A DNA stretch of 62,042 bases from a plasmid, in sequence record NZ_CP117297.1. One strand, given 5' to 3'. The position numbers were made by a program, and so were the translations under genes. Numbering within the stretch: the first letter of the stretch is position 1; the number at the start of each line of letters is the position of its first letter. Positions 1 through 34,762 of the stretch are shown here, one piece after another. A model generated the notes under the pieces. It was not told the origin of the DNA. It searched no databases and worked only from the letters and a program-made list of their open reading frames with translations.

Positions 1-1110
1 ATGACAAAATCAACAAATTTTAATTACTATGAAGCAGATAACGTATATGGAGCCTTATTTTTCCAGTTTCCTAAGGTATTAATGTATGGCGAGCAATATA
101 AACATTTAAGCAGTGATGCTAAATTGGCTTATATGGTACTGAAAGACCGGCTCGAGTACTCTTTGCGCAACAACTGGGTTGATGAAGAAGGACACGTCTA
201 TTTTACTTTTACCAATCAAGAACTCGAAAATTTATTTAATTGCCATAATCAAAAAGTCGTCAAAATAAAAAAAGAACTCGAAACCTCTCATTTGCTGATG
301 CAAAAACAACTGGGCTTTAACCCAAAGACTAAAAAGAATGAACCGAATCGCTTATATCTGTCCAAGCTCGATGTGAAAGCAACCGATGTCTATTTACGCG
401 GTGAAGATAGCCCAAAAGTGTCTCAAACCCTTGCTACAAGCGGAAATGTGAAAATCACACTTCCGCAGGAGACCGCTCAAACCCTTGCTACAAGCGGAAA
501 TGTGAAAATCACACTTCCGCATAAGTCCGTTGACGAGACCGCTCAAACCCTTGCTACAAGCGGAAATGTGAAAATCACACACAATCTATATAAAGACTTT
601 AAAAACATAGATACTAATAGATACGACATAGATACTCAAAAGTTGGACTTTTCCACAGCCAATTTTTCACCAGCTGAAATTGAAGCCCAAAATCGGGATT
701 TAGTAAAACATGCTGATGAGTTTTTAACTGACGAAGATAATGGGTTGCCGGTCTTCTTAGAGCCAGAAACAGTGCAACTACTTAGCTTTTGGTGCCGTAC
801 CCCACAACAAATGCGGCGCTTTATTGGTATTATCTTAAACGCCAAATATGCTGTTGAAAAAGAACATAAGGATTTAGGCGTATGGATTCTATTAGATGAC
901 CCTGATTTAAAAAAAATGATGACCAAAACGTTAAGACGCTATTTTAATGCCCTAAGAAGCGATGAGAAACATATCAAGAATGTTGAGAACTACCTGTACG
1001 GCACTATGCAAAACCTATTTGATGTTTGGTGGAACCAACAAGCAGCTAGAGACTATGCGGCCAAGCACCCTAAAGAACAAAATATTGATAACGAGCGTTT
1101 TTGGAATTAA
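1..1110 (+). CDS. Plasmid replication initiator, RepA_N-like family
   Basis: 369 aa with a conserved N-terminal RepA_N-like region. The coding sequence carries internal tandem repeats, consistent with an origin lying inside rep. An RBS (aaagggag) for the ATG at position 1 sits at window end 62027-62034. Confidence 0.75.
   Translation: MTKSTNFNYYEADNVYGALFFQFPKVLMYGEQYKHLSSDAKLAYMVLKDRLEYSLRNNWVDEEGHVYFTFTNQELENLFNCHNQKVVKIKKELETSHLLMQKQLGFNPKTKKNEPNRLYLSKLDVKATDVYLRGEDSPKVSQTLATSGNVKITLPQETAQTLATSGNVKITLPHKSVDETAQTLATSGNVKITHNLYKDFKNIDTNRYDIDTQKLDFSTANFSPAEIEAQNRDLVKHADEFLTDEDNGLPVFLEPETVQLLSFWCRTPQQMRRFIGIILNAKYAVEKEHKDLGVWILLDDPDLKKMMTKTLRRYFNALRSDEKHIKNVENYLYGTMQNLFDVWWNQQAARDYAAKHPKEQNIDNERFWN
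418..582. repeat. Three tandem direct repeats inside the rep coding region; candidate iterons/origin
   Basis: A conserved 37-bp core (caaacccttgctacaagcggaaatgtgaaaatcacac) occurs at 424-460, 479-515 and 544-580. It encodes a repeated peptide TLATSGNVKIT. Confidence 0.6.
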
Positions 1111-6462: not shown

Positions 6463-6731
6463 TTTAAATGTAAAATAAAAAAGCTATCAGCCCGAGCGCT
6501 TAATCAGTTATATCAAAGCTTGCAACAACAAGTTCAGCAAGCAAGGAACCCACAACAAAAATCAGAACTAAAAAATAAACTAAATGATATACACCATGAA
6601 ATCAGTAAGCGAACACAAAAACAGCTGCAAGCATTTACTGAACAGAATCCGTCAATCAAACAACCCAAATCCGAACTGGATCAAAGTTTAAAGCGTTAGC
6701 CAGTTTTTAAAGGTCATGCTATAATATAAAC

Positions 6732-6857
6732 AGAAAAGGAAGCCCCGCTAGAACAGGACTTCCCGCGCAAGCCGCTTCAAAGGCGGTGGCATTAGTTAAC
6801 TAAACGATAATGTCGTCCCGTAACTCGCCAAAGTTATGATCGGGGCGGCTTTTTTAT
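6732..6857 (+). ncRNA. Candidate antitoxin sRNA of an Fst/Lpt-like type I TA module (copy 1)
   Basis: Extended -10 tgcTATAAT at 6717-6725. Conserved 5' segment acagaaaaggaagccccgctagaacaggacttccc..gccgcttcaaaggcggtggc with two predicted stem-loops. Intrinsic terminator cggggcggcttttttatttg overlaps the 3' end of the toxin ORF. The element recurs four times in the window. Confidence 0.5.
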
Positions 6858-6943
6858 TTGTGGTGTTTGTCGATATAGCTGAGTAGCGCGATTAAAAACG
6901 TGCCAAACAGCAACATCAACGAGAGTGTCTGGAAGAAGCTCAT
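6854..6943 (-). CDS. Fst/Lpt-like type I toxin peptide (29 aa) MSFFQTLSLMLLFGTFLIALLSYIDKHHK
   Basis: Short hydrophobic transmembrane peptide with a charged C-terminus. Convergent with the sRNA and overlapping it at the terminator. Its own -10 (tataat in ccctgtataatgg, minus strand) is near 7040-7050. Confidence 0.55.
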   Translation of the reverse strand: MSFFQTLSLMLLFGTFLIALLSYIDKHHK

Positions 6944-7330
6944 TGACTGTGAAACCTTCCTGAAGATTATTCCATGTTCCCATGGGCCTCACCTCACAAG
7001 GGAAAAGACAGCCACCGCCCTTAAAACTTCTTGCTCAATCCATTATACAGGGAAATTAAAAATCAACCAAGAGCAATAAAACTGCTCTTGACAGCAAAGG
7101 AAAGCTACAACACTAGCAAGGTCAGCAAGCAAGGCTAATAGTACTGCTGCAATGGGAAATAACAAGTGTCCAGTAGGGCGGTCCAAGAGCGGGCACAAAT
7201 CCTACCAGACAGTACGATTACAAAAGTAAAGAAGGTCATAAAATCAGCTACTAGAGGGAACTGTGGTAAAAGACGAATAAGATGGTTAAATGATGACTAT
7301 AAAGTCAAGTCAGATAAACAGGTATTTGAG

Positions 7331-9213: not shown

Positions 9214-9282
9214 GAACCCAGGGATCTGAGATACCATCAATGGTTAAGATTCAACCCGGTTCGTTGTGGAGTGCTTACGATC

Positions 9283-9420
9283 ATTCAATCATGATCAAAT
9301 AGTAAATCTACTTATAACTACTAAACCTAAGTTTAGCAATAACGTCACTAGTCCGATTAACATCATACCCATTGATGATTCATTACCTGTTTGAGGTAAT
9401 TTACCTGTTTTTTCGTAGGT
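9283..9420 (-). pseudogene. Remnant of an LPXTG cell-wall anchor C-terminus (gene body missing)
   Basis: The minus strand encodes KTGKLPQTGNESSMGMMLIGLVTLLL.., similar to the anchor of the 23634-25982 adhesin. No upstream ORF remains. Confidence 0.55.
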
Positions 9421-9674
9421 TTTACGGTCAAGTCCAAAATGTTGGTGTAAATTAAATTCCGCGAATTTATCATTTCACAAACTTAAGCTTACCGTCTTCT
9501 TCTGAGGTGGCATCTTTTTCAATCCTGTCATGACACTTTAGCTCAATGTTCAACTAAATTTAACATACTTTGGAAGGCTTTTCCAATTTACACAAAATTA
9601 TTGACACTCTCAGAGCTTTCCCCAGCCACTAAAATTTAACTTGTAGCTGTGTTAATTTGATGGAGTTAACCTTC

Positions 9675-23400: not shown

Positions 23401-23633
23401 GATAGATGACAGATGTAGCTTTACCACTGCTAAGATGAAATTCACTGATATTAGTATACCATTTGGTATTGGACATCAATGCTAAAATGTCGTGATAAAT
23501 TATATTTGGAAAAAGAAAGAACCGTTTAGAATTTCAAATGAAACTCTAAACGGTTCTTCTTCTTAGGAGGCTTATGTCATAAACCCTCTAATAAATTACC
23601 TATATTAGTCCACTAAAGGCCATCCAATCATGA

Positions 23634-25982
23634 TCAGATAGTAAACCTGTTTATAACTACTAAACCTAAGCTTAATAGTAACATTACTATTCCAACGAAC
23701 ATCATACCTATTGATGATCTATCACCTGTTTGAGGTAATCTACTTGTTTTATCGTACGTTTTACCTTGAGTGAAATCTTTTGGTACTACCTTATTTCCAT
23801 TATTAGGAACTTGAGGTTTCTTAGGCGTTGTCGGGTTATTAGGAACCTGGGGCTTCTTAGGTGTTGTCGGATTATGGGTATTAGTAATATTGTAACCATC
23901 GATAGTACTTGTGTACCCAGCAACTGCATCTTCCGTTACCGTGTAGGTAATCTTCTGACCATTAGCGTAAGCGGCTAAGTTGTCAAAACTGTATTGCCAG
24001 TTATCACTAGCACTAACCGTCTTACTTGCGACTTGCCGACCGTTAGCCAACAAGTTCACGGTGATTGAACTTGGGCGGATTCCATCTTGATTGTTGTTAT
24101 CCTTCCAAGTCTTGGTTCCAGATACCTTGACGGTAGCAGGAGTGTGGCTGTTAGTTACGTTGTAACCATCAACAGTACTTGTGTACCCAGCAACTGCATT
24201 TTCCGTTACCGTGTAGGTAATCTTCTGACCATTAGCGTAAGCGGCTAAGTTGTCAAAACTGTATTGCCAGTTATCACTAGCACTAACCGTCTTACTTGCG
24301 ACTTGCCGACCGTTAGCCAACAAGTTCACGGTGATTGAGCTTGGGCGGATTCCATCTTGATTGTTGTTATCCTTCCAAGTCTTCGTCCCTGAAACTGAGG
24401 TTTTCTCAATCTTATCGATAATTTTAATAACGGCCCCTTTTGAATCAAAATTTGTAGAAGTTACGATTACCGTATCTGCTAATTGATATCCCTTAGGTGC
24501 ACTGACCTCTTTCAATTGGTAACTATCACGTAACAACCCATAGATAGTGCCCTGGCCTGAGGAATCTGTTGTGATAGTTCCTACAACTTCTCCAGTTGAC
24601 TGTCGAATTACATCAAAGATAGCGTCATGTAATGGATTGCCAGATTCATCCACCTTTTTTATTGTTAAACTATAATTATATCCGTTTGCAGTACCATTTG
24701 CCTCTTGATAATATACTGTATTAGTAAACTCATTCATCTTATGGTCGTTATACGAATAACTTGATGAATTTTTAATTTGTTCTCCGTTAATCAACTTATG
24801 AGAAGGCTTTACCTTATAGGTGATAGAGAAACCCTGATTGATATTACCAAGATTCACAGAAAAAGATGAGCCATTGAATTCAGGGGTATATTTTTCAGTT
24901 ACTTCTTTAGGGTTAGACAATGACCAATAGTTATTGGCGTCCTTAACCCAAGTTCCAGTTGCAATTTTTATGCTTGACTGTTCGTAATTAACTCCAGCAG
25001 AATTAAGAATATCCTTAATAATAACATTATTCCGTTTAGAATTAGTTGTGTTTATAGCAATATGGTATTTAAGTTCATTGTTATCATAATCCATCCATCC
25101 ATATTTATAAAAATCAATATCACTATCACCTTTATTAACTTTATAGCTTATACCCGTGCTATCGATAGTAACTACATTCCCGTTTATTTTAATTGTTGCA
25201 GGGAGTATCGTGTCCTTTTTCACCTTTTCTGTGTCAGCCATTATTTGCATATTAATGTGGCCGGTAACATCATCATGTGTATTTACATAGTCCGTGTATG
25301 TTAAGACCAACGTCTTTTTTTCTTTATTAATAATTGCACTAGCAACCGTAGTCACCCCATCAGGAGCGTAGACATTAAATGATTGATCTCTAGTAAAATC
25401 CAACTCATTAGGAAGTGATATTGTCGTATAATCTCCGGATCTTACTGAATTAGGAACAGAAAAGTCAAAAGAGAATTCTGTAGTTCCTCCACCTGAGATC
25501 TCCTTAGTTGATGATCTCTGATTGGTAATTGTAATATCAACGCTAGTTCCTTTATTATATGCAGATGGGGAACTATTATTCTTAGAAATACTATTAACTG
25601 ATGGACCCTGATTAGTATTAGCCCCACTATTAGAAGTCGAGTATTGACTATTACTTATATAATTACGGTCCTCCTGAACTGGCTGATTATTGTCAGTTGG
25701 TGCTCTCGGTTGTGCTTCTGTATTAGTAACTTGTTTCTGAGACGTCTGATCGTCCGAAGAACTAGTATTATCTGTGGTATTACTATTAACGGTACTTATC
25801 TGCGGTTCTTCCTGTTGATTAATAACAGTCCCGGACTCCGTACCGTTCTGGGTAATATTTGTCTTGCTATCAGCATATACGGTCATACCATTATTAGATG
25901 ATATCCATATTGACCCTAATAACGAAAATAAGACTAGTCCCATCATAAATAAAAGTCGACGATGCCTAGATTTATTACTCAT
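23634..25982 (-). CDS. LPXTG-anchored adhesin with two CnaB-type repeats and an N-terminal collagen-binding-like domain
   Basis: Signal peptide after MSNKSRHRR (RBS aaggagg). Ser/Thr/Asn-rich region. Two 90-aa repeats TWKDNNNQDGIRPSSITVNLLANGRQVASKTVSASDNWQYSFDNLAAYANGQKITYTVTE (CnaB-like). C-terminal LPQTG. Confidence 0.7.
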   Translation of the reverse strand: MSNKSRHRRLLFMMGLVLFSLLGSIWISSNNGMTVYADSKTNITQNGTESGTVINQQEEPQISTVNSNTTDNTSSSDDQTSQKQVTNTEAQPRAPTDNNQPVQEDRNYISNSQYSTSNSGANTNQGPSVNSISKNNSSPSAYNKGTSVDITITNQRSSTKEISGGGTTEFSFDFSVPNSVRSGDYTTISLPNELDFTRDQSFNVYAPDGVTTVASAIINKEKKTLVLTYTDYVNTHDDVTGHINMQIMADTEKVKKDTILPATIKINGNVVTIDSTGISYKVNKGDSDIDFYKYGWMDYDNNELKYHIAINTTNSKRNNVIIKDILNSAGVNYEQSSIKIATGTWVKDANNYWSLSNPKEVTEKYTPEFNGSSFSVNLGNINQGFSITYKVKPSHKLINGEQIKNSSSYSYNDHKMNEFTNTVYYQEANGTANGYNYSLTIKKVDESGNPLHDAIFDVIRQSTGEVVGTITTDSSGQGTIYGLLRDSYQLKEVSAPKGYQLADTVIVTSTNFDSKGAVIKIIDKIEKTSVSGTKTWKDNNNQDGIRPSSITVNLLANGRQVASKTVSASDNWQYSFDNLAAYANGQKITYTVTENAVAGYTSTVDGYNVTNSHTPATVKVSGTKTWKDNNNQDGIRPSSITVNLLANGRQVASKTVSASDNWQYSFDNLAAYANGQKITYTVTEDAVAGYTSTIDGYNITNTHNPTTPKKPQVPNNPTTPKKPQVPNNGNKVVPKDFTQGKTYDKTSRLPQTGDRSSIGMMFVGIVMLLLSLGLVVINRFTI
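23886..24425. repeat. Two tandem near-identical 270-bp repeats (CnaB-domain coding)
   Basis: 23891-24160 and 24161-24430 are near-identical at the nucleotide level. Confidence 0.8.
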
Positions 25983-26558
25983 ACTGTTGCCTCCTTCTTT
26001 GTTTTCTATGCGCAATACTAAAGATTATCACATACCCTTATATTATCATATTCTTATAGGAAATTTCACACTAACTTCACCAACCGTCAACAGTGATATC
26101 ACTAGTATTAGCGTAGTTATCAAATATATGTTCCCGATGACATAACAAAGGCGCTGTATCGACAGTGAAAAAGCCGGCACAGCGCCTTTTGTTATATTCA
26201 AACTCTGGTCTCCCCTAAAGTTTCCCAATTTCATATTCATACATATTTTACAGGTCACGTTTGGGAGCCTTCCCTAAGGCCCTTACGAGTAAATACGATT
26301 CTACCCCCCTAAAACAAAAGTTTAAAGGAAACACTAAAGTAATAGCTCGACTGATTATACCATACTACATAAGGTGAACCCTCGGTCAATTATGAGCGAT
26401 AAAGAAACGTTTGTCCAATAAAGTGAAAATTTGTTGAATATTTTTTAATAGCTTCTCACTACTTATGGATATAAAAAATGACACTAGCTAACAATCCCAT
26501 TTTACCGGGGTTATGTATGAGCTGGTGTCAAAACTTAAAGTTATGAAGCAGAAATTGA

Positions 26559-28706: not shown

Positions 28707-29020
28707 ATATAAATCTTATCATCACTTGGCCGATCAAGATCCCAATTAGCCCCATAAGATTTTGGAAAACGGCAGCGCACGTTAGCTACCTTCCTTACTA
28801 CATTTTATGGATGGGGGGGGTTACGCCTAATCTTCCTAGAGGATATTTGAATTTTTAATCGGTAACACTAATTTTGACATCTTGACGATCTCCCGCGTTA
28901 TTTTTTGGTCACTGGGTCCTTGTAACCATTAATACAGATAAATCGATGATCGATAATACAGATAAATCCCAGTTGATTTATTTAAATCACTTTGTTAAAT
29001 GTGGTACAACTAGAGATGTT

Positions 29021-29156
29021 CAGCTTCACTAAGGACCACTAATGGGACTTTTAAGGGGTTAAGTCCCCGGGCAACGGCTTCGCAACTAGCATAAGACTTG
29101 TTATCAATTAAGAAGATCACGCCATGGGGTTCATCATCAGTAAACAATTTCATCAT
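29021..29156 (-). pseudogene. N-terminal fragment of a UmuC/Y-family DNA polymerase gene
   Basis: Minus strand encodes MMKLFTDDEPHGVIFLIDNKSYASCEAVARGLNPLKVPLVVLSEAEHL then stops. Paralogous to 32393-32656. Confidence 0.5.
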
Positions 29157-29273
29157 TTCCGTTAGCTTTTACCTGTATTGTAGCACAGAAGGCAAACGTG
29201 TGTTCCCTAAAAGCTGCTAGGAAGCTGATTAAAAATAGTCGAAAATCAGTTATAGTCATGCTATAATGTAGAC

Positions 29274-29400
29274 AGAAAAAGGAAGCCCCGCTAGAACAGG
29301 ACTTCCCATGCAAGCCGCTTCAAAGGCGGTGGCGAAGTTAATAAGACAGCATTAAGCTACCCTGTAACTGGCCAAAGTTACGCAGGGTGGCTTTTTATTT
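29274..29400 (+). ncRNA. Candidate type I antitoxin sRNA (copy 2)
   Basis: Same conserved promoter/5' element (tgctataat at 29259-29267) and terminator cagggtggctttttatttg overlapping the toxin ORF. Confidence 0.5.
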
Positions 29401-29484
29401 GTGGTGCTTGTCGATATAGCTGAGTAGCGCGATTAAAAATGTGCCAAACAGCAACATCAACGAGAGTGTCTGGAAGACGCTCAT
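29395..29484 (-). CDS. Fst/Lpt-like type I toxin peptide (29 aa) MSVFQTLSLMLLFGTFLIALLSYIDKHHK
   Basis: One substitution relative to copy 1. Convergent with the sRNA. Confidence 0.55.
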   Translation of the reverse strand: MSVFQTLSLMLLFGTFLIALLSYIDKHHK

Positions 29485-29930
29485 TGACTGTGAAACCTTC
29501 CTGAAGATTATTCCATGTTCCCATGGGCCTCACCTCGCAAGGGAAAAGACAGCCACCGCCCTTAAAACTTCTTGCGAAGTTTATTATACAAAGAAACTCG
29601 CAACAACATCAAGCAGATCGAAGTACTAGATTTTGTTTAACGTAGTAACAAAACAAAGGAGAGGCTACCAATGTGTGTACCTAATTTATTGCAGTTTGTA
29701 CCTAATGATTATATTGCAAATAATTATTTAAAAACTAATTTTTATTTAAAAGATGTTCTATGCTATAGAAAATTGGTCTCCTTCCATTCATGCTGATGTT
29801 CCATTAGTAAAAGTCTTAGTGTCATGCTTTTCTTATTGATTAGCATGGCTTTTCTTTTGCCTATTCTCAAAAAACCCGCTACCTTCCCAATGAGTGAAGT
29901 GCAACAAAAAAGTTAGACAAAATTGATTAT

Positions 29931-30671
29931 TTAAGCTACCAAGGTATGATTTCGGTATTCAACCGGAGTCATACCTTTTGTTTTTAAGGAGATACGTTGG
30001 TAATTAAAGTAATGAATGTATTGAGCTGAGAGTGATTTTAATTCAGCTAAGTCTTTACATGGTGGGAAACCATCTAATAACTCTGTCTTAAACAGGTGAA
30101 AGAAACTCTCCATTGGTGCGTTATCATGACAATTTCCCTTACGGGACATACTTTGAATAAAGTGATTATCAGCTAACTTTTGGGTATAGTACCCCAGTTG
30201 ATAGTGCCACCCCTGATCAGAATGAATAATTGGTTGAGCATTATCAGGCAGCTTTGTACATAGCTCGTTGAGAGTAGCGGTAATCAACTGTCGATCAGGA
30301 TGTTGACTCAATTGGAAGGCTAAAACTTCCTTACTGGCTTCATCGATAATTGAGGAAATATAAGCCCAACTGTGATTAGCTAAGCGAACTTGAGAAACAT
30401 CTGTGTGGAGGACTTGATAAGGAATGGTGGCCTGAAATTGTTGTTTTAGTAGATTATCCGCAACTGTGCCCACATTACCTTCATAAGATGAGTATTTACC
30501 ACTACGGTGGCGATTATACAGTGCCACTTGAACATCTAATTTCGCCATCAACTTGTTCACCGTCATGTCCGCCAAATGAATGCCCATTGCCCGCAGTTTT
30601 TGGTTCACGCGACGATAACCGTAGGTCCATCGTCCGCGGACTTGCCCTTCTTTAGCCACGCTAAGAATCAC
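29931..30671 (-). CDS. IS3-family transposase OrfB
   Basis: rve integrase core (HSDQGWHY .. GNCHDNAPMESFF). Confidence 0.8.
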   Translation of the reverse strand: MILSVAKEGQVRGRWTYGYRRVNQKLRAMGIHLADMTVNKLMAKLDVQVALYNRHRSGKYSSYEGNVGTVADNLLKQQFQATIPYQVLHTDVSQVRLANHSWAYISSIIDEASKEVLAFQLSQHPDRQLITATLNELCTKLPDNAQPIIHSDQGWHYQLGYYTQKLADNHFIQSMSRKGNCHDNAPMESFFHLFKTELLDGFPPCKDLAELKSLSAQYIHYFNYQRISLKTKGMTPVEYRNHTLVA

Positions 30672-30826
30672 TTGCTTAACACTCGCATATTTATCATGAT
30701 GGTTAGCGATGCGCTTGCGCTCATCATGGTAAGTAGCCTTAGGAAGGTTGATTTTATGGAGAATGTCACCAATCTTATAGCGATATTTCTTCGGTAGCGA
30801 TGCTTGATCTGCCCTGATCTGATCAA

Positions 30827-31399
30827 CTATTTGCGTTTTCTCTTTGCCTTGGAGGGTCCGAACAGGGCCAACGATTTTTTTAAGATGTCACGTTCCAATT
30901 TTGTGTCATAGAGTTCTTGGCTTTTCTTGGCAAGTTCTTCTTTTAAACGTTCCACTTCAGTCTTATTAGTAAGACGACGAAGTCGTTTCTTAGTATGTTT
31001 CACCTTTGACGGCCTACCTTTCGGGTGAGGTTTCAAGGCTTCAATACCATCTCGCTTGAACTGTGACCGCCAAAGTGAAATTTGGCACGCTTGCACGTCA
31101 AATCGAGCCGCTACTTTAACCATCGATTCCTCATGAGTTTGGTAGTAGTCTATCACACTCAACTTAAAATCTGCGGTAAGGGTTCGTGGATGACGACGCC
31201 GTTTCAAGGCGTCTATCCCACTTAAGCGATATCTTTGAATCCATTTCCTGATCAGTCGGCTACTGATACTGTATTTGCGCCCCAAGGCTCGAGAACTTTG
31301 TGGAGTAGTCAGATATTCGTGGACAATTTTAGCTTTAAAGTCAGGTTTGTATTTAGTCATAAAAAGTGCCTCACAATCGTTAGAACTTTTGTCTAACAA
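30827..31399 (-). CDS. IS3-family transposase OrfA (HTH)
   Basis: 190 aa with HTH and leucine zipper typical of IS3 OrfA. Confidence 0.75.
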   Translation of the reverse strand: MLDKSSNDCEALFMTKYKPDFKAKIVHEYLTTPQSSRALGRKYSISSRLIRKWIQRYRLSGIDALKRRRHPRTLTADFKLSVIDYYQTHEESMVKVAARFDVQACQISLWRSQFKRDGIEALKPHPKGRPSKVKHTKKRLRRLTNKTEVERLKEELAKKSQELYDTKLERDILKKSLALFGPSKAKRKRK

Positions 31400-32463: not shown

Positions 32464-32656
32464 CGCAAGCCTTAGCTTCGGGTGACGTGGCTAAAATGAG
32501 TCCACCATTAGTATTTTCAGCTTCACTAAGGACCACTAATGGGACTTTTAAGGGGTTAAGTCCCCGGGCAACGGTCTCGCAACTAGCATAAAAGGACTTG
32601 TTATCAATTAAGAAAAACATGCCATGCGGTTCACCATCAAGAAATATTTTCATCAC
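32393..32656 (-). pseudogene. N-terminal fragment of a UmuC/Y-family DNA polymerase gene
   Basis: MMKIFLDGEPHGMFFLIDNKSFYASCETVARGLNPLKVPLVVLSE matches the UmuC N-terminus (FYASCE..). It then runs out of frame into the LysM gene. Confidence 0.55.
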
Positions 32657-32772
32657 TTCCGTTAGCTTTTACCTGGATTGTAGCACATAAAGCAAACATA
32701 TGTTCCCTTAAGTTGCTAGGAAGCTGATTAAAAATAGTCGAAAATCAGTTATAGTCATGCTATAATGTAGAC

Positions 32773-32892
32773 AGAAAAAGGAAGCCCCGCTGGAACAGGA
32801 CTTCCCATGTAGAGCCGTTAAAGACGGTGGCAGATTTTAACGATATTTAATAACCGCTAGCTGACCAGAGCTAAGGCGGCTATTTTTTTTGC
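32773..32892 (+). ncRNA. Candidate type I antitoxin sRNA (copy 3, divergent 3' half)
   Basis: Conserved promoter and 5' element (tgctataat at 32758-32766). Different variable region and terminator (agccgctag..ctaaggcggctatttttttt) overlapping a different toxin ORF. Confidence 0.45.
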
Positions 32893-32984
32893 TGACTTTT
32901 GATCAGCTCAACAATTAATGCAATTAAGGCCACGATAAAAGTACCGAAAGCCAGCATTAATTGTAAAGCGTCCGCAACGGACAC
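32880..32984 (-). CDS. Divergent Fst-like type I toxin peptide (34 aa, GTG start) MSVADALQLMLAFGTFIVALIALIVELIKSQQKK
   Basis: SD aaaggag 7 nt upstream of the GTG. Hydrophobic TM plus charged tail. -10 tataat (minus strand, cctgtataat) near 33090. Confidence 0.5.
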   Translation of the reverse strand: MSVADALQLMLAFGTFIVALIALIVELIKSQQKK

Positions 32985-33310
32985 TTAGGCTACTCCTTTC
33001 ATTAGGATTTATGGGCTTTAAAGGCTTAACACCATAAGCACCACCTCCGATCGGAAATAGCCACCGCCTTAACTTCTCTACAAAGAACTATTATACAGGG
33101 AAATCAAAAACTTGAAACGATCTTGTTATGGCTTTGCCAATCAAAATTTCTTCTTCCTAAGAATTGACTGTATATTTGTATAAAAAAAGTCCCCCACATT
33201 CCTGTGGAGGACTCAGATATTAATCAATACCAGTTGACTAATACCCAGAATATCGAAATATGGTTTTAAACAGAGCTAATTAATAATACGTCCCAAATTT
33301 GGGGTTCATA

Positions 33311-33733: not shown

Positions 33734-34035
33734 CCCACCTCATGATTAATTTGGCGCGTGTGATTTGCCATCCTACAAAGACATTTAATTCATCTTCCCC
33801 CACGATTGATTTGTGGTACTGTCCATCAGCCTTGATTAATTGTTGGTCCATGATCTGGGAACTAATGGCCCCGCCGGAATATTCTTCTTCAAGGCCTTGG
33901 TTAAATTATTAAACGCCCGTGTAAACTCAAGCTGGTTCGTCTGTCGTTCACGCTTTACTTTTTCAATGATCGGAATTGTTAGAAAGCTGATTAAAGATAG
34001 TCGAAAGTCAGTTATAGTCATGCTATAATGTAGAC

Positions 34036-34163
34036 AGAAAAAGGAAGTCCCGCTGGAACAGGGCTTCCCACGCAAGCCGCTTCAAAGGCGGTTGCAGAAA
34101 GTTAACTAAACGATAATGTCGTCCCCGTAACTCGCCAAAGTTATGATCGGGGCGGCTTTTTTA
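34036..34163 (+). ncRNA. Orphan copy (4) of the type I antitoxin-like sRNA with no toxin ORF
   Basis: Promoter, 5' element and terminator are near-identical to copy 1. The terminator is immediately followed by the 3' end of mazF instead of a toxin peptide ORF. Confidence 0.45.
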
Positions 34164-34505
34164 TTTGTCATCAATACTAAACAATAATTTGTACAAAGTG
34201 ATTATTTCTTCTAGTTCTTCACGCGATACATGATCGACAATAGCTTCGTCAGCAACATGTCTTGCCCGCAAATCTAAAGCTATTGTTTGATCTAACAATA
34301 CTTTTCCATATACTGTTTGACTACTAGTTAGTCGATGATACATTGGAAAATTCCGCTCGGTACTGCTAATTGGAGCCACAATCGTCATGTTACTTGTTTG
34401 GTAGACTAGATCATTGCTTAGAGCAATGGCTGGCCGCCTATTCATCTGTTCATGACCACGGCTTGGATTAAAGTTAACATAGAATATATCGCCCTGACTT
34501 ACCAT
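34161..34505 (-). CDS. mazF: MazF/PemK-family endoribonuclease toxin
   Basis: 114 aa. GDIFYVNFNPSRGHEQ .. RPAIALSND matches the PemK/MazF N-terminus. Confidence 0.8.
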   Translation of the reverse strand: MVSQGDIFYVNFNPSRGHEQMNRRPAIALSNDLVYQTSNMTIVAPISSTERNFPMYHRLTSSQTVYGKVLLDQTIALDLRARHVADEAIVDHVSREELEEIITLYKLLFSIDDK

Positions 34506-34762
34506 TGAAGTTCATTACCTTCTGACTTTCCCCAATCAAGCTCGTGATCACGTTTCCCGTCATCTTGCCAGTTCTTAAATAGTTCGTGAATATTAGTCGG
34601 ATTCTTTTTTATTGGTGTTAAAACAATCGATCCATTTTCAATTGTTATTGTCATATCTTGGTTATCATCTAATTTCAATTGTCTAATAATCTGGCTAGGA
34701 ATTCTAGCAGCTTTCGAGTTGCCCCACTTTGCCAGGCGTGTTTGTTCTTTAATAAGTTCCAT
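34499..34762 (-). CDS. mazE: MazE/PemI-family antitoxin (AbrB/SpoVT fold)
   Basis: 87 aa. LAKWGNSKAARIPSQII motif. 7-bp overlap with mazF. Confidence 0.75.
   Translation of the reverse strand: MELIKEQTRLAKWGNSKAARIPSQIIRQLKLDDNQDMTITIENGSIVLTPIKKNPTNIHELFKNWQDDGKRDHELDWGKSEGNELQW

What the first reader, a model, noticed from the sequence alone, without database searches (positions are those of the whole stretch)
6700..7055. Family of four Fst/Lpt-like type I toxin-antitoxin modules sharing one sRNA promoter and 5' element
A conserved element recurs at 6717, 29259, 32758 and 34021. It comprises an extended -10 tgcTATAAT, the segment acagaaaaaggaagccccgctagaacaggacttccc..gccgcttcaaaggcggtggc, a variable segment and an intrinsic terminator. 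In three copies the terminator overlaps, convergently, the 3' end of a 29-34 aa hydrophobic peptide ORF with a charged tail (MSFFQTLSLMLLFGTFLIALLSYIDKHHK and variants). Each peptide ORF has its own conserved -10 (cctgtataat). This matches the par/Fst (RNAI/RNAII) architecture, and no ORF-based annotation would show it.
Basis: partly seen in the sequence, partly recalled or inferred. Interest (0 to 1): 0.6.

Follow-up and report, generated by a model that had tools for sequence, protein, structure and literature searches.

The report
Known RatA-type plasmid toxin-antitoxin modules
The repeated element is real and is a small-RNA-controlled toxin-antitoxin system (three complete copies and one antitoxin-only copy on a Lactobacillus-type plasmid), but it belongs to the already catalogued TxpA/RatA-SprG/SprF family rather than the Fst/Lpt family, so it is ordinary.

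Summary
A ~125-nt plus-strand unit (extended -10, conserved 5' part, variable linker, terminator) occurs four times. Three copies converge on 29-34 aa hydrophobic ORFs.

The type I toxin-antitoxin reading is right, but the family and architecture are wrong. All four plus-strand units match Rfam RatA (RF01776) above threshold. The minus-strand units match Rfam rli28 (RF01492). The peptides match Pfam Hol_Tox, not Fst. The published Lpt locus shares no DNA or RNA-family similarity with these modules.

The "conserved sRNA 5' element" is the reverse complement of two toxin-mRNA structures. One is the toxin's own intrinsic terminator. The other is the 3' arm of a ~20-bp helix that pairs the mRNA's 5' end with its 3' UTR; covariation in 22 homologs supports it. 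The sRNA is therefore fully antisense to the toxin 3' UTR, as in RatA, SR4 and SprF1. There is no par-like pairing to the toxin 5' region.

RefSeq already annotates the peptides as "putative holin-like toxin" in more than 500 plasmids. A 93%-identical copy was transcribed and knocked out in L. casei Zhang, where it was called "rli28". Copy 4 is an orphan antitoxin fused to a pemK/mazE operon. Novelty is low.

The parts
6717..6725 (+). Module 1: antitoxin sRNA promoter, extended -10 (TGCTATAAT)
   Evidence: Read from sequence. Promoter scan gives 10/12 matches with TG. The motif is conserved at a fixed distance past the toxin terminator in homologs, including E. faecalis.
6732..6856 (+). Module 1: predicted antitoxin sRNA (~125 nt), RatA family. 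Terminator hairpin 6812-6849 plus U-run 6850-6855.
   Evidence: Rfam RatA 57.6 bits against a gathering score of 49 at 6722-6811. Fold. Ends are predicted, not mapped.
6854..6943 (-). Module 1: toxin ORF, 29 aa, MSFFQTLSLMLLFGTFLIALLSYIDKHHK
   Evidence: ORF list. Pfam Hol_Tox 45 bits, E 9e-12. RefSeq homologs are annotated 'putative holin-like toxin'.
6730..7035 (-). Module 1: predicted toxin mRNA (~306 nt). 5' arm about 7011-7034 pairs with 3' arm about 6767-6790. Intrinsic terminator 6764->6737 plus U-tail.
   Evidence: Terminator scan: 12 bp plus T-run. MFE fold. Covariation. Rfam rli28 36.1 bits at 6873-7056, below the gathering score of 45.
7042..7049 (-). Module 1: toxin promoter, extended -10 (TGTATAAT on the minus strand)
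   Evidence: Read from sequence. Conserved in 20 of 22 aligned homologs.
29259..29267 (+). Module 2: antitoxin sRNA promoter, extended -10
29274..29397 (+). Module 2: predicted antitoxin sRNA (~124 nt), RatA family
   Evidence: Rfam RatA 58 bits at 29264-29353. Fold.
29395..29484 (-). Module 2: toxin ORF, 29 aa, MSVFQTLSLMLLFGTFLIALLSYIDKHHK
   Evidence: ORF list. Pfam Hol_Tox 50.3 bits.
29272..29576 (-). Module 2: predicted toxin mRNA (~305 nt) with 5'-3' helix, terminator 29307->29280, and promoter -10 at 29583-29590
   Evidence: Rfam rli28 45.0 bits at 29414-29598.
32758..32766 (+). Module 3: antitoxin sRNA promoter, extended -10
32773..32889 (+). Module 3: predicted antitoxin sRNA (~117 nt), RatA family
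   Evidence: Rfam RatA 94 bits, full model length, at 32763-32852. Fold.
32880..32984 (-). Module 3: toxin ORF, 34 aa (GTG start), MSVADALQLMLAFGTFIVALIALIVELIKSQQKK
   Evidence: ORF list. Pfam Hol_Tox 64 bits, E 1e-17. Closest solved chain is 7ns1_A. Purifying selection acts in this reading frame.
32771..33084 (-). Module 3: predicted toxin mRNA (~314 nt) with 5'-3' helix, terminator 32806->32779, and promoter -10 at 33090-33097
   Evidence: Rfam rli28 53.2 bits at 32918-33104. 93% identical to the transcribed 'rli28' knockout target of L. casei Zhang.
34021..34163 (+). Copy 4: orphan antitoxin sRNA gene (promoter 34021-34029, predicted RNA 34036-34163) with no Hol_Tox toxin. Its terminator abuts the pemK stop codon.
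   Evidence: Rfam RatA 53.1 bits at 34026-34116. Alignment with copy 1 gives 111/128 identity over the sRNA, and similarity to the modules ends just past the stop codon, at about 34168 (repeat family D11). On the minus strand the former toxin terminator is weakened.
34161..34762 (-). Neighbour of copy 4: type II pemK/mazF (34161-34505) and mazE/pemI (34499-34762) operon, convergent with the orphan sRNA
   Evidence: ORF list. Pfam PemK_toxin E 5e-20 and MazE_antitoxin E 6e-11. The same junction occurs in plasmids H86, H87 and H90.

Best explanation
These are three complete copies and one antitoxin-only copy of a type I toxin-antitoxin module of the TxpA/RatA-SprG/SprF family (Rfam RatA plus rli28; Pfam Hol_Tox), carried on a mosaic, mobilisable Lactobacillaceae plasmid.

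Shown by sequence and comparative analysis:
- Each toxin gene has an extended -10 promoter and specifies a ~305-315-nt mRNA.
- The first ~25 nt of that mRNA pair with a segment of its own 3' UTR, forming a ~20-bp 'main helix' immediately before an intrinsic terminator.
- The Shine-Dalgarno/start region lies in a local hairpin.
- The ORF encodes a 29-34 aa single-helix membrane peptide.
- From an extended -10 just beyond that terminator, a ~117-128-nt sRNA is transcribed in the opposite direction. It starts in the complement of the toxin terminator's U-tail, runs through the complement of the terminator and of the 3' arm, then a poorly conserved linker. It ends at its own terminator, whose U-run overlaps the toxin stop codon.
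- The sRNA is thus perfectly complementary to the whole toxin 3' UTR.

Inferred from characterised relatives (RatA, SR4, SR5, SprF1):
- The abundant but labile sRNA pairs with the toxin 3' UTR, and the duplex is cut by RNase III so the mRNA decays. It may also open the main helix and expose the 5' end.
- When the plasmid is lost the sRNA disappears first. The structured, stable toxin mRNA is then translated and the peptide damages the membrane (post-segregational killing or growth arrest).

Copy 4 arose by recombination within a 15-nt microhomology at the stop codon. This swapped the toxin for a pemIK operon. Its sRNA could still act in trans on module 1.
For: - Rfam: RatA is above the gathering score for all four plus-strand units (53-94 bits against 49). 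rli28 is at or above it for modules 3 and 2, and module 1 scores 36 bits.
- Pfam: Hol_Tox for all three peptides. Sub-threshold NCBIfam hits to PepG1 and ComI. The closest solved chain is 7ns1_A, a 31-aa PepG1-type peptide.
- Minus-strand intrinsic terminators (12 bp plus T-run) lie exactly on the 'conserved 5' element' in modules 1-3.
- MFE folds of all three toxin mRNAs give the same 5'-3' helix.
- RNAalifold on 22 homologs from Lactobacillaceae, Leuconostoc and Enterococcus recovers this helix independently.
- For that helix, 95.9% of cells are paired against 36-50% when partners are slid. Six pairs changed on both sides. 0 of 500 shuffles reach the covariation score.
- For the whole structure, 94.7% of cells are paired and 23 of 59 pairs changed on both sides.
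- The toxin terminator has 59 G.U cells against 4 C.A cells on the toxin strand, so it is selected on that strand.
- The antitoxin extended -10 is conserved at a fixed position in divergent homologs.
- The ORF is under purifying selection: 645 synonymous against 592 nonsynonymous codon differences in frame, compared with 235/1042 and 74/1217 in the other two frames.
- Homolog evidence: a ~110-nt sRNA antisense to the EF3263 3' UTR, and EF3263 toxicity (PMC2887945). rli28 and RatA are among the most highly expressed genes of Listeria plasmids (PMC9484302). A 93%-identical 'rli28' and an 88-93%-identical 'ratA' were detected in L. casei Zhang, and the rli28c knockout grows better (PMC8249650). 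The S. aureus PepG1 locus hits the same Rfam pair and folds with the same helix.
- Mechanism precedent: 3'-end pairing over 100-140 bp and RNase III cleavage (PMC6562991).
Against: - No transcript ends, toxicity data or RNase dependence exist for these particular copies. Promoters, transcription starts and terminators are predictions.
- Much of the covariation separates the two subtypes (29-aa and 34-aa), so the number of independent compensatory events is modest, roughly 5-7 lineages.
- Module 1's toxin RNA is below the rli28 gathering score.
- B. subtilis TxpA itself is 59 aa. The peptides here resemble EF3263 and PepG1 much more than TxpA.
- Whether the sRNA acts by mRNA decay, by translation inhibition or by both is not known for this branch of the family.
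Confidence: 0.85

Rival explanations
1. One reading: a par/Fst (RNAI/RNAII) or Lpt-type module. The antitoxin would pair through 5' direct repeats with the toxin's translation-initiation region, and the two RNAs would share one bidirectional terminator.
For: The genes are convergent and the toxins are small and hydrophobic. The peptide length (29 aa) equals that of Lpt. Pairwise BLASTP of Lpt against the module-1 peptide gives 38% identity over 26 aa, E 2e-4 for that single comparison. A 5'-end helix and SD sequestration also exist in fst RNAI (PMC5608710).
Against: The peptides hit Hol_Tox, with no Fst_toxin match at E<=1, whereas Lpt hits Fst_toxin. The Lpt locus has no RatA or rli28 hit at E<=1 and no DNA similarity to the modules. 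Complementarity between the sRNA and the toxin 5' region is not above shuffles (z from -1.3 to +1.6), and the best local helices are not conserved between subtypes. There are two separate strand-specific terminators, and the overlap covers the whole sRNA.
Confidence: 0.03
2. The minus-strand transcript works as a non-coding regulatory sRNA ('rli28') that slows growth, as interpreted for L. casei Zhang. On this reading the small ORF is incidental.
For: Rfam classes rli28 as an sRNA. Knockout of the 93%-identical rli28c in L. casei Zhang improved growth and acid production, and the authors attributed this to an sRNA (PMC8249650).
Against: The ORF is conserved from Lactobacillaceae to Enterococcus and Staphylococcus with a coding signature: 52% of codon differences are synonymous in frame against 18% and 6% out of frame, and third-position changes dominate. 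It matches Hol_Tox strongly. Homologous peptides (EF3263, PepG1) are toxic when expressed. A better-growing knockout is what loss of a toxin gene predicts.
Confidence: 0.05
3. No stand-alone sRNA is made. The plus-strand 'element' is conserved only because it is the 3' UTR and terminator of the toxin mRNA, and the TGCTATAAT motif is fortuitous.
For: The most conserved part of the element is explained by toxin-mRNA structure. No transcript data exist for this window.
Against: The extended -10 is kept at a fixed distance in divergent homologs: TGCTATAAT, TGTTATAAT, and TGGTATAAT in E. faecalis. The plus-strand terminator hairpin covaries (helices 6 and 7) and carries a U-run. Copy 4 retains promoter and terminator without any toxin. 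Antisense RNAs of this kind were detected for EF3263, on Listeria plasmids and in L. casei Zhang.
Confidence: 0.04
4. The peptides are not addiction toxins. They would serve another plasmid-benefiting role, such as ComI-like inhibition of competence or killing of competitors as reported for PepG1. The RNA circuit would then merely set their dose.
For: Sub-threshold NCBIfam hits to ComI (24.6-35.9 bits against a cutoff of 55). sprG1 peptides are reported to lyse competing bacteria and host cells (PMC8158120).
Against: The scores are well below the ComI cutoff. Multi-copy carriage on mobilisable plasmids next to other TA systems fits a maintenance role. The two roles are not mutually exclusive.
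Confidence: 0.08

Closest known systems
SprG1/SprF1 (and SprG2-4/SprF2-4) of Staphylococcus aureus
   Same: The S. aureus PepG1 locus hits the same Rfam pair: rli28 at 95.9 bits on the toxin mRNA and a convergent RatA at 38.9 bits. It has the same predicted 5'-3' helix core (GGUGGCUAU / AUAGCCACCGUC) followed by a terminator. The peptide family is the same: 7ns1_A matches the 34-aa peptide at E 7e-4, with NCBIfam PepG1 hits. Both occur as several paralogous copies with possible cross-regulation (PMC8158120). The antitoxin has a purine-rich 5' end.
   Different: The location is a Lactobacillaceae plasmid rather than a prophage or island. The peptides are 29-34 aa with a single start, not two nested products of 44 and 31 aa. 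Ribosome binding by the sRNA 5' end is shown for SprF1 only. NCBIfam PepG1 scores are below the cutoff (24-46 bits against 70).
EF3263 / ref40-ref46 module of Enterococcus faecalis (TxpA family; Fozo 2010, Fouquier d'Herouel 2011)
   Same: A short TxpA-family toxin with a ~110-nt sRNA antisense to its 3' UTR. In strain V583 a mazEF operon is inserted in, and converges on, this module. That resembles copy 4 next to pemK/mazE. An E. faecalis plasmid homolog (L127) aligns with the window modules and keeps all helices through compensatory changes.
   Different: The E. faecalis locus is chromosomal. In V583 the type I toxin is retained and a 167-nt repeat flanks mazEF. In copy 4 the toxin is gone and no such flanking repeat was seen.
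txpA/RatA of Bacillus subtilis (founder of the family)
   Same: The genes are convergent. The antitoxin pairs with the toxin mRNA's 3' end over about 100 nt or more. RNase III-dependent decay is the documented mechanism (PMC6562991). The Rfam family name of the sRNA is RatA.
   Different: TxpA is 59 aa, RatA is 222 nt, and the locus lies in the skin element. The window sRNAs are ~120 nt and the peptides 29-34 aa. Sequence similarity to B. subtilis RatA itself was not tested here.
bsrG/SR4 and bsrE/SR5 of B. subtilis
   Same: The toxin mRNA has a 'main helix' and a sequestered SD. The antitoxin binds the 3' region, starting from terminator and other loops. Both features resemble the architecture found here.
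   Different: Rfam BsrG scores only 21.4 bits against a gathering score of 55 on module 3, so this is not the same RNA family. SR4's induced SD refolding is not demonstrated or predicted here.
rli28 + RatA on Listeria plasmids, and 'rli28c'/'ratA' of the L. casei Zhang plasmid
   Same: They are the same two Rfam families in the same convergent arrangement, with a small ORF inside rli28. The L. casei Zhang sequences are 93% (toxin region) and 88-93% (sRNA) identical to the window's copies, and were shown to be transcribed.
   Different: Those papers treat rli28 as an sRNA. The Listeria paper speculates about a BsrH-like toxin. The toxin-mRNA reading, the 5'-3' helix and the terminator overlap are worked out here.
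par (Fst/RNAII) of pAD1 and Lpt/RNAII of Lacticaseibacillus plasmids
   Same: They are type I modules on plasmids of lactic acid bacteria with convergent RNAs, ~29-33 aa membrane peptides, and 5' structures that restrain translation.
   Different: The toxin family differs (Fst_toxin against Hol_Tox). In par, pairing is through 5' direct repeats plus a shared terminator, and the overlap excludes the ORF. No sequence or RNA-family similarity was found.

Membership tests
TxpA/RatA-SprG/SprF type I TA (Rfam RF01776 + RF01492, Pfam PF16935) | Toxin is a short single-TM peptide matching Hol_Tox above the curated cutoff | tested here: met
   Scores are 45, 50.3 and 64 bits against a cutoff of 23.3.
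TxpA/RatA-SprG/SprF type I TA (Rfam RF01776 + RF01492, Pfam PF16935) | Antitoxin RNA matches the RatA covariance model at or above the gathering score | tested here: met
   All four copies score 57.6, 58, 94 and 53.1 bits against 49, over the full model length.
TxpA/RatA-SprG/SprF type I TA (Rfam RF01776 + RF01492, Pfam PF16935) | Toxin transcript matches the rli28 (sprG-type mRNA) covariance model | tested here: met
   Module 3 scores 53.2 bits and module 2 scores 45.0 bits, against a gathering score of 45. Module 1 scores 36.1 bits, below threshold, but it is 95% identical to module 2 over 205 nt. The bona fide S. aureus PepG1 locus scores 95.9 bits.
TxpA/RatA-SprG/SprF type I TA (Rfam RF01776 + RF01492, Pfam PF16935) | Convergent genes, with the antisense RNA on the 3' side overlapping the toxin 3' UTR and the end of the ORF | tested here: met
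   This rests on predicted promoters and terminators. The criterion is as stated in the T1TAdb paper. Transcript ends are not mapped.
TxpA/RatA-SprG/SprF type I TA (Rfam RF01776 + RF01492, Pfam PF16935) | Both RNAs are expressed | not testable with these tools
   Only homolog data exist: L. casei Zhang (93% and 88-93% identical), Listeria plasmids and EF3263.
TxpA/RatA-SprG/SprF type I TA (Rfam RF01776 + RF01492, Pfam PF16935) | Peptide is toxic on overexpression, and the cognate RNA neutralises it (RNase III-assisted decay) | not testable with these tools
   Shown for TxpA, BsrG, EF3263 and PepG1. Not shown for these copies.
par/Fst-RNAII, including Lpt/RNAII | Toxin belongs to the Fst/Ldr family (Fst_toxin; A-P-x-x-V-G type core) | tested here: not met
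   There is no Fst_toxin hit at E<=1 for any of the three peptides. Lpt (MNSFDKAIIAPLLVGVFLLLLKYALDNHK) does hit Fst_toxin. Only a weak pairwise similarity is seen.
par/Fst-RNAII, including Lpt/RNAII | Antitoxin pairs with the toxin 5' region and start codon through direct repeats | tested here: not met
   Duplex energies against the non-overlapping 5' part are within the shuffle range (z from -1.3 to +1.6). The longest local helices are not conserved across subtypes.
par/Fst-RNAII, including Lpt/RNAII | The two RNAs overlap only at a shared bidirectional terminator, and the ORF is not overlapped | tested here: not met
   There are two distinct, strand-biased terminators. The whole ~120-nt sRNA is overlapped, and the sRNA U-run covers the stop codon.
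par/Fst-RNAII, including Lpt/RNAII | Sequence or RNA-family similarity to the published Lpt locus (pLBPC-2) | tested here: not met
   There are no Rfam hits in the Lpt locus at E<=1. blastn finds nothing better than E 0.04 against the modules and nothing in the whole window at E<=1e-3.
bsrG/SR4 (Rfam RF01412) | Toxin mRNA matches the BsrG covariance model | tested here: not met
   Module 3 scores 21.4 bits against a gathering score of 55. The resemblance is architectural only (main helix, 3' overlap).

The most novel reading that the evidence does not exclude
The conserved 5'-3' main helix and the sRNA may form a strand-displacement switch. The sRNA carries the same sequence as the toxin's 5' arm (AAGGCGGUGGC), so it competes with that arm for the 3' arm. 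Binding would unzip the helix and expose the 5' end to decay.

Two further roles are possible for the purine-rich sRNA 5' end (AGAAAAAGGAAG) and for the orphan copy 4. They could give these plasmid sRNAs a SprF1-like ribosome-binding function. They could also couple a type I antitoxin to a type II pemIK operon, in cis on its 3' UTR and in trans on module 1.
Probability: 0.15. Interest if true: 0.5.

Novelty: already known. Interest (0 to 1): 0.2.

Why it matters
As a discovery it matters little. The RNA and peptide families are curated in Rfam and Pfam. RefSeq annotates the toxin ORFs. Near-identical modules sit on hundreds of sequenced lactic-acid-bacteria plasmids.

The useful outcomes are corrective:
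- These modules should not be filed with Fst/Lpt.
- The strongly conserved 'sRNA 5' element' is explained by constraints on the toxin mRNA, namely its terminator and the 3' arm of a family-wide 5'-3' helix.
- The 'rli28c sRNA' reported to slow growth of the probiotic L. casei Zhang is almost certainly the toxin mRNA of such a module. That changes how the phenotype should be read.

For plasmid biology of food and probiotic lactobacilli, carrying three such modules plus an orphan antitoxin next to pemIK illustrates how densely addiction systems are stacked and recombined.

Tried and rejected
(1) par-type 5' pairing. RNAduplex of each sRNA against the non-overlapping toxin 5' part, and a longest-helix scan with shuffles, gave nothing conserved (the first attempt timed out). 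Two local matches were seen but are not supported. One is a 12-nt match between the 34-aa-type sRNA's 3' end (GGCUAUUUUUUU) and the SD region (AAAGGAGUAGCC); 7-23 of 100 shuffles do as well. The other is a G.U-rich 16-nt helix present in only 3 of the 7 sequences of the 29-aa type.

(2) A genuine Fst/Lpt module elsewhere in the window. tblastn with Lpt gave weak hits at 23661-23723(-) and 9322-9363(-). These are the LPxTG/TM anchor of a 793-aa Cna-B surface protein and a remnant copy of it.

(3) Copy 4 as a simple deletion derivative of a full module next to pemK. The L. salivarius pSF118-20 hit (H88) looked like this, but it is two separate pieces in a different order.

(4) The degenerate DNA pattern scan of genome contigs returned mostly chance hits in unrelated phyla. 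Only about 17 of the 120 loci were real modules.

(5) My first regex screens for toxin ORFs and terminators missed divergent homologs. Annotation coordinates and alignment replaced them.

(6) L125 and L126 were left out of the covariation set because one end of the module is missing or replaced.

(7) The accession AP012543 was not in the collection. NZ_AP012543 worked.
Full report
OBSERVATION

The 27-mer GGAAGCCCCGCTAGAACAGGACTTCCC is found at 6738, 29281, 32780 and 34043 with 0, 0, 1 and 3 mismatches, against 0.00 expected by chance. The repeat finder groups the four copies as family D1. Three copies face small hydrophobic ORFs on the minus strand: 6854-6943 (29 aa), 29395-29484 (29 aa) and 32880-32984 (34 aa, GTG start). 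The fourth copy has no such ORF.

WHAT THE PARTS ARE

A search of the whole window against Rfam at curated thresholds returned RatA (RF01776, 'RNA anti-toxin A') for all four plus-strand units, at 53-94 bits against a gathering score of 49. It returned rli28 (RF01492) for the minus-strand regions of modules 3 and 2. Module 1 scores 36 bits, below threshold. A permissive scan found no further copies.

All three peptides match Pfam Hol_Tox (PF16935) at E 1e-12 to 1e-17 and do not match Fst_toxin. NCBIfam gives sub-threshold hits to the S. aureus type I toxin PepG1 and to ComI. The closest solved chain is 7ns1_A, a 31-aa PepG1-type peptide.

In the plasmid collection, 531 records (megablast, module 1) and 777 records (blastn, module 3) carry similar modules. 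They come mostly from Lactiplantibacillus, other Lactobacillaceae, Leuconostoc, Pediococcus and Enterococcus. The ORF is annotated 'putative holin-like toxin'. The claim that ORF-based annotation would miss it is therefore wrong for the toxin. The sRNA is indeed not annotated in the gene tables shown for these records.

ANATOMY

The simple terminator scan found a 12-bp hairpin plus T-run on the minus strand at 6764->6737, 29307->29280 and 32806->32779. The toxin mRNA therefore runs from its extended -10 (TGTATAAT) through the ORF and on through the whole sRNA gene. It stops about 7 nt before the sRNA's -10. This gives ~305-315-nt mRNAs whose 3' UTR is perfectly complementary to the entire ~117-128-nt sRNA.

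MFE folds of the three predicted toxin mRNAs all contain the same long-range helix. The first ~25 nt (for example GCAAGAAGUUUUAAGGGCGGUGGC) pair with GCCACCGCCUUUGAAGCGGCUUGC, immediately upstream of the terminator.

COMPARATIVE TEST

I collected homologs from a genome scan and from divergent plasmid hits. The plasmid hits were Leuconostoc, Apilactobacillus, L. rhamnosus, Lentilactobacillus, L. paracasei and E. faecalis. I aligned 22 distinct toxin-sense units.

RNAalifold independently predicted four elements: the 5'-3' helix, a hairpin enclosing the SD/start region, the hairpin corresponding to the sRNA terminator, and the toxin terminator.

For the 5'-3' helix alone, 95.9% of cells pair, against 36-50% when partners are slid by 1-3 columns. 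Six pairs show changes on both sides. Examples of 5' arm / 3' arm are GUAGAG/CUCUAC, GCAAG/CUUGC, GCAGA/UCUGC, GAUAG/CUAUC and GUAAAG/CUUUAC. None of 500 shuffles reaches the covariation score. For the whole structure, 23 of 59 pairs changed on both sides, and 0 of 500 shuffles reach the observed value on any of the five measures. One caveat applies. Much of this signal separates the 29-aa and 34-aa subtypes, so there are only a handful of independent events.

Strand asymmetry shows which RNA each hairpin serves. The toxin terminator has 59 G.U cells on the toxin strand, which would be C.A mismatches in the sRNA, and only 4 of the reverse kind.

Mean column identity is 0.82 for the toxin terminator, 0.80 for the 3' arm and 0.41 for the linker between the 3' arm and the sRNA terminator. 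The antitoxin's extended -10 is kept at a fixed position even in E. faecalis.

The ORF carries a coding signature. There are 645 synonymous against 592 nonsynonymous codon differences in frame, compared with 235/1042 and 74/1217 in the other two frames.

FAMILY ASSIGNMENT: NOT Fst/Lpt

I fetched the published Lpt locus (pLBPC-2; Folli 2017, PMC5608710). Four results separate it from the window modules:
- Lpt is MNSFDKAIIAPLLVGVFLLLLKYALDNHK and hits Fst_toxin.
- Its locus has no RatA or rli28 match at E<=1.
- It has no DNA similarity to the window's modules.
- Only a weak pairwise peptide resemblance exists: 38% identity over 26 aa, E 2e-4 for a single comparison.

The par hallmark is antitoxin pairing with the toxin's 5' region through direct repeats. 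It is absent here: duplex energies are within shuffle range, and the best local helices are not conserved. T1TAdb's criterion also places these modules with TxpA/RatA and SprG/SprF, because there the antisense RNA overlaps the ORF, whereas in Fst/RNAII it does not.

CLOSEST KNOWN SYSTEMS

Fozo et al. 2010 already put Lactobacillus casei, Leuconostoc and Enterococcus peptides in the TxpA family. They detected a ~110-nt sRNA antisense to the 3' UTR of E. faecalis EF3263, and EF3263 was toxic in E. coli.

The S. aureus PepG1 (sprG1) locus, fetched from a phage record, hits the same Rfam pair: rli28 at 95.9 bits and a convergent RatA at 38.9 bits. It folds with the same 5'-3' helix core, GAUGGUGGCUAU / AUAGCCACCGUC, before its terminator. 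[quoted passage not shown]

On Listeria plasmids, rli28 plus a convergent RatA with an internal small ORF was proposed as a type I TA. Both RNAs are among the most highly expressed plasmid genes.

The L. casei Zhang study is the most relevant. It prints its plasmid 'rli28' and 'ratA' knockout targets. The former is 93% identical over 185 nt to window 32915-33099 and contains the toxin ORF start. The latter is 88-93% identical to all four window sRNAs. Their 'rli28c sRNA' is induced in stationary phase and in the gut, and its knockout grows better. It is thus best read as the toxin mRNA of this module type.

MECHANISM

Shown here by sequence and covariation:
- two extended -10 promoters;
- two strand-specific terminators;
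- full antisense overlap of the sRNA with the toxin 3' UTR;
- a 5'-3' helix and an SD/start hairpin in the toxin mRNA;
- a peptide under purifying selection.

Inferred from RatA, SR4, SR5, SR6 and SprF1: the sRNA binds the 3' UTR, RNase III cleaves the duplex and the toxin mRNA decays. Loss of the plasmid removes the labile sRNA first, and the stable, structured toxin mRNA is then translated.

A further inference is untested. The sRNA carries the same sequence as the toxin's 5' arm, so binding should displace that arm and expose the mRNA's 5' end.

CONTEXT AND COPY 4

The window is a mosaic Lactobacillaceae plasmid with no full-length match in the plasmid collection. Module 1 follows a MobA/MobL relaxase gene. 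Modules 2 and 3 lie in a ~320-bp duplication that includes the 5' end of a truncated Y-family polymerase gene.

Copy 4 keeps its promoter and terminator, but its terminator abuts the stop codon of pemK (34161-34505), which sits downstream of mazE. Identity to module 1 ends just past that shared stop codon, at about 34168. Typical pemIK loci become similar from 34154-34156 onward. The junction therefore lies in a 15-nt microhomology, ACAAATAAAAAAGCC on the minus strand. The same junction occurs in three other plasmids (H86, H87, H90).

The copy-4 sRNA would hybridise to module 1's toxin 3' UTR almost as well as the cognate sRNA: -228 against -258 kcal/mol. The other non-cognate pairs give -127 to -178 kcal/mol. 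The arrangement recalls E. faecalis V583, where mazEF is inserted into the EF3263 module.

VERDICT

This is a real, correctly spotted repeat family and a correct call of 'type I TA'. The family and architecture were wrong, and the system is already known and catalogued. Interest is low. The residual value lies in three points: the structural explanation of the conserved element, the family-wide 5'-3' helix, and the re-reading of the published 'rli28c' phenotype.

Noticed in passing
window 34021-34762: The orphan RatA-type sRNA gene is fused, at a 15-nt microhomology spanning the stop codon (34154-34168), to a pemK/mazE type II operon that converges on it. The same junction occurs in three other plasmids (L. 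helveticus, L. fermentum, Lactobacillus sp. JM1). It resembles the mazEF insertion in the E. faecalis V583 EF3263 module.
   Followed up: partly
window 32915-33099 compared with the sequence printed in PMC8249650: The 'rli28' knockout target of L. casei Zhang is 93% identical to module 3's toxin region and contains the toxin ORF start. The growth-repressing 'rli28c sRNA' of that paper is most likely a Hol_Tox toxin mRNA. The paper does not say this.
   Followed up: yes
Rfam RF01492 / RF01776 matches at window 32918-33104(-) and 32763-32852(+): Both Rfam models begin inside the promoter -10 box (model positions 10-16 UAUAAU, and 1-4 UAAU). The rli28 model stops inside the ORF, so it omits the 3' UTR, the 3' arm of the 5'-3' helix and the terminator. 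Its annotated structure therefore cannot contain the helix found here.
   Followed up: partly
window 32883-32890 (A8 run on the minus strand, end of the 34-aa ORF); homologs L091, L122, L124, L125: The ORF ends ...CAG CAA AAA AAA TAG. Homologs with A7 instead of A8 read through to C-terminal extensions (...QQKNNRLS...). The same run is the U-tract of the sRNA terminator. This could be real slippage polymorphism or homopolymer sequencing error.
   Followed up: no
window 6732-6745, 29274-29288, 32773-32787, 34036-34050: All four sRNAs start with a purine-rich, SD-like tract (AGAAAAAGGAAG), which is the complement of the toxin terminator's U-tail and stem. A purine-rich 5' end of S. aureus SprF1 is reported to bind ribosomes, so an analogous second function is conceivable.
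   Followed up: no
window 29016-29333 and 32513-32832: Modules 2 and 3 sit in a ~320-bp duplication (repeat families D12, D9, D1). It includes the start of a divergently oriented, truncated Y-family DNA polymerase (IMS/UmuC-like) gene. An IS3-family element (29931-31399) lies between the two modules.
   Followed up: partly
window 422-595: Three tandem 54-nt direct repeats (CTCAAACCCTTGCTACAAGCGGAAATGTGAAAATCACACTTCCGCAGGAGACCG), each containing an inverted repeat. They could be iterons or an origin-related array.
   Followed up: no
window 23634-26015(-) and 9295-9372(-): A 793-aa Cna-B/LPxTG surface protein with an internal 270-bp tandem duplication (23869-24395, family D4). A remnant copy of its LPxTG anchor lies at 9282-9425 (family D8). 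These hydrophobic anchors gave spurious weak tblastn hits with Lpt.
   Followed up: yes
window 23515-23602(-): A weak Rfam hit to Staphylococcus sRNA sau-5971 (40 bits against a gathering score of 90), just downstream of the surface-protein gene. It is probably only its terminator region.
   Followed up: no
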